From positions 1 through 36,301 of the forward strand of contig NW_024705531.1 in the NCBI RefSeq assembly GCF_018977255.1: 36,301 bases of DNA, read 5' to 3'. The stretch is from Callorhinchus milii. Its lineage: Eukaryota. Positions 18,001 through 25,400 of this stretch are shown here, piece after piece (the first letter of the stretch is position 1; each line of letters opens with the position of its first letter). Made by a program: the position numbers.

Positions 18001-21000
18001 TAACCGAGTGGAATATGAAGGCTGCACGACTTATCCTGCACTCAATGGATAGCCGAGTAAATCTAAAAAATTTAGTCGCGTCGTAAATATATCCATGCTG
18101 ACAAAAAACATACACGGTTATTCTCCTCAAACACCTTTAGATGTCGCCATATAACAATACAACAAAGCGGTCTTTTATAAAGAAGCTTTCACATTGGGAG
18201 AAAGCCCAATTACCAGTGAGCACTGCAGATAAGGTGGAATACTATATCTTTTTGGAAAGAACACTAATGGCGCCACGAGAGGACCCGATTGTGATACCCG
18301 TGTGGGGCGAAAACTTAGGGAAGTTTCCTTATGTCAAAAGCCACTCCTTACCATGCAGTAAATTGGAATCCGGTTGCTAGCCCATTGGAGTATCGCTTTC
18401 TGGGGACAATAATTCATCCAACAAGAAACAAAGAAACAAAGAAACACAGAAACAGAGGGACGGACGGACGGACGGACGGACGGATGGATGTATAGATACG
18501 CGCATCAATAGGCACAGCAATAAGCACATCAATAAGCACAGCAATGAATATATACATCAAATAATATTTCGGTCTCTCAAACCACCATTATATCGGACCA
18601 CTGCTGTGCACAATTACCAGCCTCATTTCACTCACACAAAACAAGGTCATTCCAATTTGCAGTGTATGTTCAGAAGCAATTTTAGGTGTCTCAAAGACGT
18701 GATGAAGCTCTACCTGAAATTCGAGAAACTATGATTATAGGGATAAATTTGGTTTCATCATCATCGAAATTATCACCGCTTCCTCACACACAACCTCAAA
18801 ACGGAATTGTGCACCTAACTCATCATGGAAGTCAAAAATAAACTCAAGGTTCTGTTTCCATCGTTGATCAGCTCACCCTCAAACCCTCAATCACCTCGAT
18901 CCTCAGTACAGAGAAGTCTCATAGCGCTTCATAGAACATACCGTAAAGGACGGGCAAAAAACTGGTAGATGATTACACACATTTTTTCTTTCAGTGATCA
19001 AATTTTTATTGCTATGTCTATTTCTAAGTGATTTTTACCTTTGGAATGCTATCAGTTTATCGAAAGCAAGCGAGATCCTAGCCGTTGCTGGATAGACAGA
19101 TACGCGTGTGCGATTTGTGTCTGTGTGTGAGTGTGTATGTCTGTGTGTGTGGGGTAAATAAACTTGCCTAAGTTTTCAACGACAGACAGACAGACAGAGA
19201 TGCACAGAAATACAGACAGAGATACAAACTGGCTGAGGCACAGCTCAATAATAATCCTTAGTTTCGATACAGCGCTTTTTCATGTAGTTAACACTTGTTA
19301 AAGTTTCAAAGGATATACTGTGAAGTAAACATTGTAACATCTGCCTCCCCTTTCTTCTCTCGGTCATCGTGCGGCGCTACATCCCTGTATCACTCACTCT
19401 GCGCACTTCAGCATTTATAAATGCCCCAAACCTACACCACTTTACCGAATGTTTCCCTCCTCCTTCTCCAACATCGTCAATCGCATGATCAATCACAAGA
19501 ATCGCGGCTGCCTTGATCGGGCTCCCCACTCAGTTGCTGAACAATGTAATGGAACTCATTCCAAGTCAAAGGTGTGTTAGAAGCTGCTTCATGTGTCTTT
19601 ACCAACTCTCAGTAAGGTCCCACTCTACAACACACAGCCTTTGTCCCACTCTCAGTATCAGTTTATAATTCCTTTCGTTGGCTCCACGTCGGTTGTCCAT
19701 TTAATCCTAATTCAGCTTCAATAGTCACCACAAATCGCCATCTTCTGCCCGCTGATCTCTGGCACAGTGAATCAGTCCCTTTCCTCAAGTAGGGTCTCCC
19801 CACGCCGACCGAAATCCAACACCCCGCCCACCCCTCAAAGCCTCTGACACCAGCCATGATGTGACGCTGTTCAACACAAAGAAATCAAATCTCCAACGCT
19901 CTCACAGAGCAGCCCTGTGTTACTCACAGTCACTCTGAGGTGTCCGGGGTTGACGGTATCTCCTAGCGGTGAGAAAATGTCTCTCCTCGGTGTCTCCATC
20001 AACTTCCTCTTCTTACAATGTAAGTTTTTGTTTCCATAACACAGCACTACAAAGCACCAATGAATGTCATCAATACGATGTGCAATATAATAATACAAAT
20101 CCTTGCATTGATACAGCGAATGATAACGTCAATGAGGCTTCTCAAAGTGCTTCATGGAAAATAAGGTGAATTGACTTTTTAGTGGTCGACACGTGGCAGG
20201 CAAATGAGATACATTTTTTTCATAAATGTATTTTATCATGCATTATAATAATTCTCATCAATTGATGTTATAACTACAATTCATTTTATGACCATCTTAT
20301 ATCAGTTGGCATCAACCGAAATAATTCCAAGCCTTGGGATGTAATTTTAATAGCAGTGGTTAGTATTGAAATTTTCTTTTACTGATGTAATATTTTGTAT
20401 AATTTTCAGATGTTTTCAGTGCCTCAGTAAAGCAGACGCCATCCTCTTTTAGGAAAGAAGAATGCGACTCTTTGACCATCAGTTGTGTCTTTGAAGAAGG
20501 GTACTATGATACATTCATCAACATTGAATTTCATATGCAGTTTGGAAAAGCACAGCTTGGAATCCCATCCCCGTGAAAGACGTTTTGTTGTAAAGGCAGA
20601 CAGGGCATCGAAGTCGTCTTCTCTGGAAATTAATGATTTGAAAGTTGAAGACAGCACTGACTACAAATGTACAGCGCGATACTCTTACCATAATACCACA
20701 ATGCTGTACCTGGGCTTCCGACAATACAAAAAACCCCTTCACCAACTCACAGGAAAATCGCAGAGAATGTGAACTTCTCAATGTTTCAATACACATTCCT
20801 CACTGGTATGTGATGCACAATGATATGTAATAGCACTTCCTTGAGAAAACGACTTTTGTTTAAGAATACTTAGGAAAAGTGAGTGAGTATGAACCTGACG
20901 TAAGAGCTTTTTTGGATTCATGTAACTAGCAATTTATTACCAAGGCAGAGAGCATACAAAGATCTCCAAGGACAATATACTAAAGAACTTTACAGTTATG

Positions 21001-22421: not shown

Positions 22422-25400
22422 AATCACTTTGCTTCTCTCTCAACTGAAAATGCATTGAGCGGCTCACAGACTGAGAGAAACTTATATTGGCAACAAACCA
22501 GAGACCAAACCTCCTCCAGCAGCGATGTTATAGTCCAAACCTCCTCCAGCAGCGATGTTATAGTCCAAACCTCCTCCAGCAGCGATGTTATAGTCCAAAC
22601 CTCCTCCAGCAGCGATGTTATAGACCAAACCTCCTCCAGCAGCGATGTTATAGTCCAAACCTCCTCCAGCAGCGATGTTATAGTCCAAACCTCCTCCAGC
22701 AGCGATGTTATAGTCCAAACCTCCTCCAGCAGCGATGTTATAGTCCAAACCTCCTCCAGCAGCGATGTTATAGTAACGACATTTACAGACGGGAAACTTT
22801 CCATTTGCTGCAACTGTAAACCCACTGAATTAACGGTACAAAGTGACACCTGGTTCTCTGCTTAACATTCCCATGATGACAGACACCCAAAGCCTCAATG
22901 TGGGCAATCCGATGCAGCAAACAGGTATTAAACTGGACAAAGAAATCTCAAGGAAATGGTGAACTTATCAGAAATCATATCAATCTTGTCACAGAAATAG
23001 CTACACCGATACTGCCTGCGCTAAAATCTGGCTCAGCTACTGGAGCTCTCCACTCTGACCGATTCCTCTGCTCTTTCTACTATTGATGTAACATTAATCC
23101 TTACCTTCATATAAAGCCTTTCAAAACACATTCGGAAGGCTCTCAAGGCCTTGGACAGGCTGACGTCCTGCAGAATAGTTAGCAGAATAATTCCTGAGCA
23201 GAGGGACTTCATTTATATCGAAGGGACGAATGTCTGACAATGTTCTCCTCAGAATTTCGAAGTTTGACACGAGATTTAATTGAAGTTTTCACATTTGTGA
23301 ACGGTTTTGAAAGAGCAGCAACGATAAAATGTTACCACTCGCCAGTGGTTCGTTAATTAGAGAACCTATTTGTAAGATTAAACAACACGATGGTAGATAA
23401 TGAGGATTTATTTGCACTCTGTGAAAGGGAGCTGGAAGCAGATTCGATAATAAATTTCAGAAGGGGAATAAAGTACAAGGTAATGTGAAAAGCTCGTGGG
23501 TGTGGAATTGGTGGGACAGCTCTTCAGAAAGCTGGCTCAAACAAAATGGGTCGAATTGCCTCCTTCTGTGGTTAACATTCCATAATTCCATGATGATATG
23601 TGACTTTTAATGTGCCTTCTGTAGGATCGAGGTTTTCAGTTTCCCAGTCACCGCCTGAGCAAACTGCTTTTGCTGGTGAGAGGATAAATTTGCATTGCCA
23701 ATATTCAGGAATTTGCAGACAGGATTTCAGCGTCTCCTGGTACCGGCAGTACCCTGGCGAGGAACTGAAATACCTGCTCCACACAAAATCCTCAGGAGAC
23801 GGAGGAAATCCAATCAGAAATCATATTTTTGCTTATCTTGACACTGCGAAGAAAATAAGCGTTTTAACCATCACCGGCCTGCGGCTGACAGACTCCGCTA
23901 TGTATCATTGTGCACGCAGTCTGCACCACAGTGATACACATCATAGGAAACCTCGTACAATAACCCTCATCACAGCCAACGCTGGAAACAATACAGTACA
24001 GTTAGTGAGAGACAGTGTAACAGACCCTCTCACAACTTCCACCGTATCTTACAAAATATTGGTAATTTACTTACTGTATATTTGGATTGTTCTTCACTTT
24101 TAGACAGCAAATTGTGATAAATATTTGTTAAAAGTTATTATTAACCATAACAAAAACGTTATAAAAAATGAATAATCCTTGTATTTGATTTCGTGACTTA
24201 TCACGTATTTAGACACTCTCCTGTGTGTGATCGCTGGTATCTCTTGAGTCTCCATGATAACCTGAAACTCTTTCCACATTCTGCACATGTATATGGTTTC
24301 TCTCCTTTCTGTGATTGTTGGTGTCTCTGGACTTCTCTTGAAGTTGTCAAATTCTTTCCACACTCAGCACATTTATATGGTCTCCCTCCTGAGTGTGATC
24401 GATGGTGTATCTGCAGACTGCCTGACCATGTGAAACTGCCCACATTCCACACAATTACACAGATGCTTTCCTCGGTGTGATCGCTGGTGTCTCTTGAGGT
24501 GTTCGGAATGTATGAAAGTCTCACCACATCAGGAACTTTTATACAGTCTGTCTTCTGAGACCGATTGCTTGTGACCCTGTAGAGATCCTATTTGCGAGAC
24601 TCGGTTTTCTTCAACATGAAATTCGATAGTTTCCTGACACTCGCTCTGCTGCAAAGCATCATTTGCGTTACAAGTACTCTGCGTTGTTGATGTCCCTTTA
24701 TGGAACTCGGGAAGTCTTCTGCTGTGTTTCTGGAGGAACTCGACACGAGTCAACACAACGCGAGCATGAGGCCAGGAATGAGCCTCAGAATTATCAACTT
24801 TGGGTGCTGATGGGAGAAAAGAAAGATCTGAGTAAGCAGTGTATGAGCTTTCTTTACGAATTACTATTGAGCAAATTGCGATTGATTCCTTGCACTTGTA
24901 CAGCACCTGATAATCTCAAAGTTTTACATTATTTGCTGCCAACTGTAAGGTCAATAGCAGCTTGCATTTGTATACCGCCCTTCATGCTGATCACTTTTTG
25001 ACAACGTCAGTTTCTGACGGCAGCAACTACCCACAAACAGCCGTGAGGCGACTGCATGAGCAGTGCAGTTGAAGACTGGCTGGGACACAGGGAGAAACTT
25101 ATATTAATGCGGAAAAAGTTTTCCATTGGAGGAGGTGCTGTGCTTCAGATGAAATGTTGTAATGAGATTCCCAGCCATGTCTGTTCAGGTGGACAGTAAA
25201 GATCCCATGACATGATTCCAAAAGAGAAGCGAGTTTCTCTCAGTCCCACCACAGTTTCCCGGCAGACAATATCCCAGACAAAATTTATCAGTTACTACAT
25301 GTTTGGGACACATTGCTGTTCATCTTGGTACGTCCACCCGATGTGAAAGATGTCATGCAAATGTATTTTTTATGTTTTTTTTGTAGTCAATACACTTGGC

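What the first reader, a model, noticed from the sequence alone, without database searches (positions are those of the whole stretch)
19977..23965. Second NAR-TCR cassette: broken NAR V but intact D, J and supporting V
The NAR V is 2 nt short relative to V1. It aligns best as two 1-nt losses near 20557 and 20580, giving TGA at 20574-20576. Leader, promoter motif, RSS, D2, J2, splice sites and supporting V2 are all intact. Either the frameshift is very recent or an assembly error, or the downstream parts are kept because upstream NAR V genes such as V1 recombine into D2-J2. That would make cassettes combinatorial rather than self-contained.
Basis: partly seen in the sequence, partly recalled or inferred. 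Interest (0 to 1): 0.68.

Follow-up and report, generated by a model that had tools for sequence, protein, structure and literature searches.

The report
Dead V gene in NAR-TCR cassette
This is a second copy of a shark-type two-V-domain T-cell receptor gene cassette whose outer V gene has been knocked out by two single-base losses, an ordinary case of V-gene decay rather than evidence for a new way of mixing cassettes.

Summary
Window 19977-23965 is a second NAR-TCR cassette, paralogous to the one at 7414-10721. It has a leader, a NAR-type V exon, a 22/23-spacer RSS, a D between two 12-type RSSs, a J with 23-RSS and splice donor, a 2.1-kb intron, and a leaderless supporting V with acceptor and 23-RSS.

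Between two in-frame anchors V2 has 169 nt against 171 in V1. Two separate 1-nt gaps (20553-57 and 20572-81) fit better than one 2-nt gap, at 60 against 51 of 91 matches. The stretch between them still reads W-x-x-I-P in a third frame. The leader frame meets TGA at 20574-76.

NAR V2 is therefore a pseudogene with two hits. Two assembly errors in 287 nt are unlikely (P about 0.03 or less), but reads could not be checked.

"All else intact" is nearly right. J2 carries Pro where the second Gly of G-x-G belongs, and the D2 5' RSS spacer is 13 nt.

The intact downstream parts need no special explanation: both lesions falling in the V exon by chance has P = 0.13-0.18. Cross-cassette use is permitted by the 12/23 rule and splice phase, but nothing here supports it.

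The parts
19857..19869 (+). 13-nt motif 120 nt upstream of the leader ATG, inside a 160-nt block that is 87% identical to cassette 1. Candidate promoter element.
   Evidence: It is identical at 7294 and 19857 and occurs nowhere else in the window. The upstream 160 nt match at 139 of 159 positions, against 73% in noncoding sequence. The promoter role is inferred.
19977..20019 (+). Leader exon of NAR V2 (phase 1, last base T), followed by donor GTAAGT.
   Evidence: Read directly. It is 83% identical to leader 1 at 7414-7456.
20020..20409 (+). Leader intron, holding a copy of an interspersed repeat (20087-20206).
   Evidence: It is 73.8% identical to the cassette 1 intron. Repeat matches appear.
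20410..20696 (+). NAR-type V exon, a pseudogene. It keeps the a-b loop Cys, both canonical Cys, and F in place of the canonical Trp.
   Evidence: It is 80.3% identical to NAR V1. V1's best solved relatives are shark VNAR domains, down to E = 1.8e-13. The part after the frameshift matches I-set/V-set weakly.
20553..20581 (+). Lesion zone. Two separate 1-nt losses (20553-57 and 20572-81) lead to a premature TGA at 20574-20576 in the leader frame.
   Evidence: V1 171 nt against V2 169 nt between anchors. 60 of 91 matches against 51 of 91, and the middle frame reads A-W-N-P-I-P-V-K against V1 D-W-K-R-I-P-L-V.
20697..20734 (+). RSS of NAR V2: CACAATG, 22-nt spacer, ACAAAAAAC (or a 23-nt spacer with CAAAAAACC).
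   Evidence: Heptamer 6/7, nonamer 8/9. V1 has heptamer 7/7 and nonamer 7/9.
21059..21087 (+). 5' RSS of D2: nonamer, 13-nt spacer, heptamer (reverse complement CACATTG).
   Evidence: counted. D1 has a 12-nt spacer and CACAGTG.
21088..21101 (+). D2 coding segment, 14 nt.
   Evidence: It lies between two inverted RSSs.
21102..21129 (+). 3' RSS of D2: CACACTG, 12-nt spacer, ACAAATACC.
21443..21481 (+). RSS of J2: nonamer, 23-nt spacer, heptamer. Both cores are identical to those of J1.
21482..21535 (+). J2 coding segment (phase 1 end, last base A), followed by donor GTAAGT. It reads ...E-G-S-P-T-Y-V-T-V-T-K, so the second Gly of the G-x-G motif is Pro (CCA 21511-13).
   Evidence: Read and aligned to J1. 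J1 reads D-G-S-G-T-K-V-I-V-T-K.
21536..23624 (+). Intron between J2 and the supporting V. It holds (AG)n at 22277-22341, (CAGA)15 at 22362-22421 and a 30-bp x 9 minisatellite at 22505-22774.
   Evidence: The alignable part is 72.6-73.5% identical to cassette 1, which is the neutral level and gives no sign of a hidden leader exon.
23625..23926 (+). Leaderless supporting V exon. It starts just after AG 23623-4, is open, has the canonical Cys, W-Y-R-Q and Y-H-C, and has an extra Cys in CDR1 (23714-16).
   Evidence: Pfam V-set E = 3.2e-13. The ungapped 100-codon alignment to supporting V1 is 79.3% identical. ORF.
23927..23965 (+). RSS of supporting V2: CACAGTG, 23-nt spacer, ACAATAACC.
   Evidence: It matches the supporting V1 RSS at 37 of 39 positions, spacer included.
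7414..10721 (+). Cassette 1, the reference copy. Leader 7414-7456, NAR V1 7839-8121 (open), D1 8502-8517, J1 8901-8947, N run 9013-9372, supporting V1 10381-10682, RSS 10683-10721.

Best explanation
Cassette 2 is a duplicated NAR-TCR cassette in a cartilaginous-fish TCR alpha/delta V region whose N-terminal NAR V gene has died.

How an intact cassette works (the known model; inferred here, not shown):
1. RAG joins NAR V (23-type RSS) to D (12/12) to J (23).
2. The leaderless supporting V separately joins TCR-delta D/J segments downstream.
3. The transcript starts at the NAR V promoter.
4. Splicing runs leader > NAR VDJ > supporting VDJ > C-delta and gives a three-domain delta chain.

What is wrong in cassette 2 (shown): two independent 1-nt deletions about 25 nt apart, in the stretch between the conserved F-Y-R-K-type motif and R-F-V-V-K, put a TGA in the leader frame inside the V exon. 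No junction can rescue it.

Why the rest looks whole (inferred):
- The leader, RSSs, D2, J2 and supporting V2 are free of disabling lesions because too few mutations have fallen on the cassette since constraint was lost.
- They need not be in use.
- The Gly-to-Pro change in J2 and the 13-nt D2 spacer may be early decay of the NAR half.
- Supporting V2 has no leader of its own and is stranded with the dead V.
For: Shown:
- 171 against 169 nt between in-frame anchors.
- Two-gap alignment 60 of 91 matches against 51 of 91 for one 2-nt gap, and the middle stretch keeps W, I and P of V1 in a third frame.
- TGA at 20574-76.
- V1 aligns to shark VNARs without a gap across this stretch, so V1 has the ancestral length.
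- All other exons checked in the window are open (3,400 nt). At the 95% upper-bound indel error rate, two errors in 287 nt have P = 0.027.
- Both lesions falling in the V exon by chance: P = 0.175 against the other coding parts, 0.13 if RSS cores and D are added.
- Noncoding parts of the two cassettes are 73.0% identical, with 79 gap events and 587 mismatches. The two frameshifts are therefore compatible with a moderate neutral period.
- Defective V genes are common in this window. A plain V at about 1160-1455 has an in-frame stop at 1295-97, and the V at 13610-13917 has Ser where the first canonical Cys belongs.
- J2 has Pro at the second Gly of G-x-G through two base changes in one codon, and the D2 5' spacer is 13 nt.
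Against: - Apart from the two deletions, V2 has no nonsense codon in the frames that match V1.
- The 160 nt upstream are 87% identical to cassette 1, the supporting V RSS matches at 37 of 39, and the supporting V2 acceptor has a better pyrimidine tract than that of V1. A cassette still in use would look the same.
- Supporting V2 carries the CDR1 Cys described as typical of NAR-associated delta V, whereas supporting V1 does not (PMC1845163 passages).
- dN/dS is 0.62 for the NAR V pair and 0.80 for the supporting V pair. Differences are spread evenly over codon positions in both (11/11/13 and 22/19/21). These figures cannot tell a dead copy from a live one, and there is no outgroup to assign changes to lineages.
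- P = 0.13-0.18 shows only that chance suffices, not that selection is absent.
- Raw reads, cDNA and orthologues could not be examined.
Confidence: 0.6

Rival explanations
1. Cross-cassette use keeps the downstream half alive. There are two possible routes:
- An upstream NAR V with its own promoter (V1) rearranges to D2, or V1-D1 rearranges to J2, deleting about 12.6 kb.
- A rearranged V1-D1-J1 exon is spliced past the unrearranged supporting V1 to a rearranged supporting V2.
Cassettes would then be combinatorial.
For: - RSS types permit it: V1 has a 22-nt spacer RSS, the D2 5' RSS a 13-nt spacer, the D1 3' RSS a 12-nt spacer and J2 a 23-nt spacer.
- Splice phase permits it: J1 and J2 both end with one extra A, and both supporting V exons begin with GA.
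- Supporting V2 has the CDR1 Cys that would partner the a-b loop Cys of NAR V1. Supporting V1 lacks it and has a Cys at its sixth full codon instead (feature list from PMC1845163 passages).
- The supporting V2 RSS, acceptor and frame are flawless.
Against: - Nothing in the window requires it (P = 0.13-0.18 for chance).
- J2, the part that would have to be used in the recombination route, has lost the second Gly of the G-x-G motif, and the D2 5' RSS is the weakest of the set.
- From memory only (the paper was not held): the founding nurse-shark study found each NAR V type with its own supporting V type in cDNA.
- No paper found in six full-text searches reports cross-cassette joints.
Confidence: 0.13
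2. The frameshifts are not in the animal's working gene. They are assembly or consensus errors, or a null allele of a gene that is functional on other haplotypes. Cassette 2 would then simply be a second functional cassette.
For: - Reads could not be checked.
- V2 has no other lesion.
- The second gap can be placed beside a run of four C at 20570-73 at the cost of one match.
- The window has one 360-N run and two single N, so it is not a finished sequence.
Against: - There are two separate lesions, neither in a long homopolymer.
- 3,400 nt of other exons in the window are open, which gives P = 0.027 for two errors in 287 nt at the upper-bound rate.
- A local low-coverage patch is not excluded by that figure.
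Confidence: 0.13
3. Supporting V2 is expressed without any NAR domain, by splicing the NAR leader directly to the supporting V exon (skipping the dead V).
For: The leader donor and the supporting V acceptor are both intact and both in phase 1.
Against: The leader ends in T and the supporting V exon begins with GA. The junction codon would be TGA in cassette 2, and likewise in cassette 1. The alignable intron is at neutral identity, so there is no sign of another conserved leader exon.
Confidence: 0.02

Closest known systems
NAR-TcR genes of nurse shark and elephant shark (Criscitiello, Saltis and Flajnik 2006, not held here; features taken from passages of PMC1845163, PMC3457774 and PMC5931798)
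   Same: - An N-terminal NAR-type V with its own leader, a Cys in the a-b loop and no Trp in the W-Y-R-K motif.
- Its own D and J, so a separate VDJ rearrangement.
- A dedicated delta V without a leader downstream, with a Cys in CDR1 (supporting V2).
   Different: - The NAR V of this copy is frameshifted twice.
- Its J has G-x-P.
- In the sister cassette the supporting V lacks the CDR1 Cys.
- Expression and linkage to C-delta cannot be seen in the window.
Partial TCR-mu clusters of the opossum (passages of PMC7615758 and PMC2275272)
   Same: This is a convergent three-domain TCR built from tandem cassettes. Two of eight opossum clusters lack the N-terminal V and D but keep the downstream parts. 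Cassette decay from the 5' end is therefore a known outcome of cluster duplication.
   Different: TCR-mu clusters each have their own C, and in marsupials a germline-joined second V. There the V and D are absent rather than frameshifted. TCR-mu is unrelated by descent.
IgNAR V domains (VNAR) with solved structures
   Same: They are the closest solved relatives of NAR V1. The best 30 of the 60 rows shown are shark single-domain V regions (E 1.8e-13 to 9.5e-7). Of these, 27 are named VNAR or new antigen receptor. They align over about 86 residues with a single one-residue gap.
   Different: - VNARs have Trp where V1 has Phe (F-Y-R-K).
- IgNAR clusters have three D segments and Ig constant exons (PMC4279169 passage).
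- There is no supporting V.
V pseudogenes of Ig and TCR loci in general (established knowledge)
   Same: Frameshift and premature stop in the V exon, with RSS and leader still recognisable. Two more defective V genes lie in this same window.
   Different: Here the dead V also strands a leaderless second V that depends on it for a promoter and a signal peptide.

Membership tests
NAR-TCR cassette | The membrane-distal V is of the NAR (IgNAR V-like) type. | tested here: met
   The best solved relatives of the NAR V1 exon are VNARs: the first 30 of 60 rows shown, out of 114 matches at E <= 0.01. The next best row is an scFv at 1.3e-5. V2 is 80.3% identical to V1 in DNA. Pfam V-set scores only 24.6 bits against a cut-off of 26 for V1.
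NAR-TCR cassette | The NAR V has a typical leader, a Cys in the a-b loop and no Trp in W-Y-R-K (as listed in PMC1845163). | tested here: met
   Leader exons lie at 7414-7456 and 19977-20019. V1 reads ...Q-E-C-E-S... and Q-F-Y-R-K. V2 reads ...E-E-C-D-S... and E-F-H-M-Q.
NAR-TCR cassette | Own D and J segments with RSSs that allow a separate VDJ join. | tested here: met
   V 22/23, D 12-13/12, J 23 in both cassettes. RSS-like sites number 16 against 0.72 expected.
NAR-TCR cassette | The downstream supporting delta V has no leader and is entered by a splice acceptor. | tested here: met
   The exon starts directly after AG (23623-4 and 10379-80), in phase with the J donor. The intron is at neutral identity, with no conserved extra exon. 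Pfam V-set E = 3.2e-13 and 2.7e-14.
NAR-TCR cassette | The supporting V has a conserved Cys in CDR1 (PMC1845163). | tested here: met
   Supporting V2 has Cys at 23714-16 in CDR1. The sister supporting V1 does not; it has Cys at 10398-10400 near the N-terminus instead.
NAR-TCR cassette | An open NAR V reading frame (a working gene). | tested here: not met
   Net -2 nt and TGA at 20574-76.
NAR-TCR cassette | Expressed as a three-domain chain with C-delta, and located within the TCR delta locus. | not testable with these tools
Plain V-set segments with 23-RSS flank the cassettes.
Functional J segment | The (F/W/Y)-G-x-G motif of Ig and TCR J segments (established knowledge, recalled). | tested here: not met
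   J2 reads E-G-S-P-T. J1 reads D-G-S-G-T. Whether Pro is tolerated in an unpaired NAR domain is unknown.
V pseudogene | A frameshift or premature stop inside the V exon that no junction can correct. | tested here: met

The most novel reading that the evidence does not exclude
NAR-TCR cassettes are not closed units. The promoter-bearing NAR V1 (or V1-D1) recombines into D2-J2, or J1 is spliced to a rearranged supporting V2. Supporting V2 is the one that carries the canonical CDR1 Cys, which supporting V1 lacks. That use is what keeps the 3' half of a cassette with a dead V. This would add a combinatorial layer (NAR V x supporting V) to the shark delta repertoire.
Probability: 0.12. Interest if true: 0.55.

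Novelty: new member of a known kind. Interest (0 to 1): 0.25.

Why it matters
As it stands, this is an annotation point. One of the two NAR-TCR cassettes in this stretch should be marked as a V pseudogene with a stranded, still-open supporting V.

It also gives a clean natural test case. Long-read TCR-delta cDNA from this species can look for J2 or supporting V2 in productive chains. Finding them would show that the two V layers of NAR-TCR can be mixed between cassettes. Not finding them would confirm that cassettes are closed units.

The difference in where the two supporting V genes carry their extra cysteine bears on how the two V domains are tied together.

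Tried and rejected
- **Structure of the NAR V1 exon alone**. Mean pLDDT was 47.6, too poor to use, so no fold search was run.
- **dN/dS** between the two NAR V exons (0.62) and the two supporting V exons (0.80; frameworks 0.61). The numbers are small and there is no outgroup, so they do not discriminate.
- **A single 2-nt deletion.** Rejected: 51 against 60 of 91 matches.
- **Leader spliced directly to the supporting V.** Rejected, because the junction codon is TGA.
- **A hidden leader exon in the J2 to supporting V2 intron.** There is no block above neutral identity.
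- **Primary literature.** The founding NAR-TcR paper, Criscitiello 2010, Deiss 2019 and Ott 2021 are not held. What I say of them is recalled.
- **Full-text searches.** Six searches found no paper describing NAR-TCR V pseudogenes or cross-cassette joints. Supplements are closed, and table S1 of PMC12227049, which lists coordinates of NARTCR V genes, may bear on this.
- **Not used.** The genome-contig collection holds only bacteria and archaea, and the phage, plasmid and E. coli collections are equally irrelevant. No orthologue, cDNA or read data could therefore be consulted.
- **No joined model.** Protein searches and the fold were done exon by exon.
- **Complex prediction.** Not used, because the exons lack their J-encoded strand.

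Full report
**What the window is.** It holds V-set gene segments on the + strand, each ending in a 23-type RSS.
- Plain V exons end at 3462, 5464, 13917 and 16860. A further plain V at about 1160-1455 has an in-frame stop.
- Two composite units lie at 7414-10721 and 19977-23965 and are paralogues. BLAST aligns 6859-8955 with 19416-21543 at 71.7%, and 10379-10818 with 23623-24061 at 81.8%.
- The first exon-coded V of cassette 1 has shark single-domain VNARs as its closest solved relatives. These are the best 30 of the 60 rows shown, out of 114 matches, with E from 1.8e-13 to 9.5e-7. The next row is an scFv at 1.3e-5.
- NAR-type V genes inside a TCR V array are known only from cartilaginous fishes (passages of PMC1845163 and PMC3149040). 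I therefore take the window for a cartilaginous-fish TCR alpha/delta region. Nothing in it was taken for human.

**Anatomy of cassette 2**. The parts, in order:
- A 13-nt motif at 19857, 120 nt before the ATG. It is identical in cassette 1 and occurs nowhere else in the window.
- Leader exon 19977-20019, then the donor.
- A 390-nt intron.
- NAR V exon 20410-20696.
- RSS: CACAATG, 22-nt spacer, ACAAAAAAC.
- D2 at 21088-21101, between a 13-spacer RSS and a 12-spacer RSS.
- J2 at 21482-21535, behind a 23-spacer RSS and followed by GTAAGT.
- A 2,089-nt intron with three simple repeats, including a 30-bp x 9 array at 99% matches.
- Acceptor AG at 23623-4.
- Supporting V exon 23625-23926.
- RSS: CACAGTG, 23-nt spacer, ACAATAACC, ending at 23965.

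RSS-like sites at this stringency number 16 in the window, against 0.72 +/- 0.84 (maximum 4) in 100 shuffles. Fourteen of them sit exactly at the ends of V, D and J segments. The arrangement is V-23, 12-D-12, 23-J, so a D is obligatory.

**The lesion.** Counting from the first full codon to the conserved R-F-V-V-K codons, V1 has 171 nt and V2 has 169 nt.
- V1 aligns with VNARs across that stretch without a gap, so V2 is the copy that changed.
- I scored every placement of two 1-nt gaps. The best (before 20554 and before 20580) gives 60 of 91 matches. Placements within one match cover 20553-57 and 20572-81. The best single 2-nt gap gives 51 of 91.
- Between the two gaps a third frame reads A-W-N-P-I-P-V-K against D-W-K-R-I-P-L-V in V1, which only the two-event model explains.
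- The leader frame stops at TGA 20574-76. The frame that runs on to the RSS is open from 20476.
The exon as a whole is 4 nt longer than V1, because of an in-frame 6-nt difference next to the RSS.

**Is it an artefact?** I could not see reads.
- The 3,400 nt of other exons that I checked in the window are all open. These are two leaders, NAR V1, two J, two supporting V, four plain V and a 1,074-nt receptor gene.
- At the 95% upper bound of the indel error rate this allows, two errors in 287 nt have P = 0.027.
- Neither gap lies in a long homopolymer. The second can, however, be moved next to a run of four C at the cost of one match.
- I put error or a null allele at about 0.13.

**How intact is the rest?** The frames, splice sites and RSS cores are all present. 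Two points temper 'intact'.
- J2 reads E-G-S-P-T where J1 reads D-G-S-G-T. The codon is CCA against GGA, which is two changes in one codon at the second Gly of the J motif. That motif is conserved in Ig and TCR J segments (recalled knowledge).
- The D2 5' RSS has a 13-nt spacer and CACATTG, against 12 nt and CACAGTG in D1.
- Supporting V2 is flawless. It has the canonical Cys, W-Y-R-Q, Y-H-C, the CDR1 Cys, and an RSS that matches supporting V1 at 37 of 39 positions.

**Does the intact 3' half need explaining?** No.
- Noncoding sequence between the cassettes is 73.0% identical, with 587 mismatches and 79 gap events.
- The NAR V exons are 80.3% identical, the supporting V exons 82% (79.3% ungapped), and the upstream 160 nt 87%.
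- Both halves were therefore constrained for much of the time since duplication.
- The cassette carries only two disabling events. The chance that both fall in the 287-nt V exon is 0.175 when set against the leader, J and supporting V (399 nt). It is 0.13 if RSS cores and D are added.
- dN/dS is 0.62 for NAR V and 0.80 for the supporting V, with differences spread evenly over codon positions in both. It discriminates nothing without an outgroup.

**Cross-cassette use.** It is permitted.
- V1 (22/23-type RSS) can pair with the D2 5' RSS, and the D1 3' RSS (12) can pair with J2 (23).
- J1 and J2 both end with a lone A, and both supporting V exons begin with GA. J1 spliced to supporting V2 would therefore be in frame.
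- One observation leans that way. The CDR1 Cys, described as the putative partner of the NAR a-b loop Cys (PMC1845163 passages), is present in supporting V2 but absent from supporting V1. Supporting V1 has a Cys at 10398-10400 instead.
- Against it: the J2 Pro, the weak D2 5' RSS, and my recollection that cDNAs in the founding study paired each NAR V type with its own supporting V type. That paper was not held, so this is not verified.
- Six literature searches turned up nothing on NAR-TCR pseudogenes or cross-cassette joints.

**Comparison with what is known.** Cassette 2 meets the structural definition of a NAR-TCR cassette on every point I could test, except an open V frame.
- The nearest analogy for a cassette damaged at its 5' end is the opossum TCR-mu locus. 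There, two of eight clusters lack the N-terminal V and D (passages of PMC7615758 and PMC2275272).
- V pseudogenes are commonplace, and this window alone has two more.
- The finding is a new member of a known kind.

**Limits.**
- All protein searches and the one fold were done exon by exon. The joined leader / V / J / supporting-V step was left out.
- The fold of the V1 exon alone failed (pLDDT 47.6).
- No shark genome, cDNA or read collection was available.
- The N run at 9013-9372 in cassette 1 was left as it is.

Noticed in passing
10398-10400 and 23714-23716: The two supporting V exons carry their extra Cys in different places. Supporting V2 has it in CDR1, the position described for NAR-associated delta V. 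Supporting V1 has none in CDR1 and has one at its sixth full codon near the N-terminus. Both NAR V exons keep the a-b loop Cys.
   Followed up: partly
7456/10381-2 and 20019/23625-6: In both cassettes the leader ends in T and the supporting V exon starts with GA. A transcript that skips the NAR exon would therefore read TGA at the junction. Both J segments end in A, giving AGA. This may be a by-product of common ancestry.
   Followed up: partly
21511-21513: J2 has Pro (CCA) where J1 has the second Gly (GGA, 8923-25) of the G-x-G motif. That is two base changes in one codon.
   Followed up: partly
1160-1455: A further plain V-set exon with an in-frame stop at 1295-97 and a degraded heptamer. 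It is related to the V at 13610-13917 (66% over 358 nt).
   Followed up: partly
13610-13917: An open plain V exon in which Ser stands where the first canonical Cys belongs (…V-T-L-D-S-N-Y…), with a Cys just before W-Y-R-Q instead. Possibly non-functional.
   Followed up: no
22505-22774: A 30-bp minisatellite, 9 copies at 99% matches, in the J2 to supporting V2 intron. The matching place in cassette 1, just before 9491, shows no such array. (AG)n and (CAGA)15 lie just upstream.
   Followed up: partly
23830-24061 and 10585-10818: The 3' end of the supporting V exon, its RSS (37 of 39 including the spacer) and roughly 95 nt beyond it are more alike between cassettes than the 73% noncoding background. 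FR3 dS is 0.14 against 0.29 for the whole exon. This could be gene conversion or a conserved element.
   Followed up: no
32505-33578 (-), with a partial copy at 31352-31562: An intronless 358-aa rhodopsin-family receptor ORF (Pfam 7tm_1, E = 1.3e-19). Its nearest solved relatives are GPR139, GPR21 and GPR52, at E = 3.9e-9 and weaker. A second fragment is 81.5% identical over 211 nt.
   Followed up: partly
24204-24587 (-): An ORF fragment with C2H2 zinc fingers just downstream of cassette 2 (Pfam zf-H2C2_2, E = 7.7e-12).
   Followed up: no
1808-2017, 26843-27051, 28529-28741 and others; 7514-7637 and 20087-20206: An interspersed repeat of about 210 bp with many copies in the window at up to 96% identity. 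One copy lies in the leader intron of each NAR V, so that insertion predates the cassette duplication.
   Followed up: no
8474-8545 and 21059-21129: The NAR D segments have 12-type RSSs on both sides, while V and J have 23-type. This is the IgH-like layout rather than the 12/23 layout that I recall for TCR-delta D segments.
   Followed up: no
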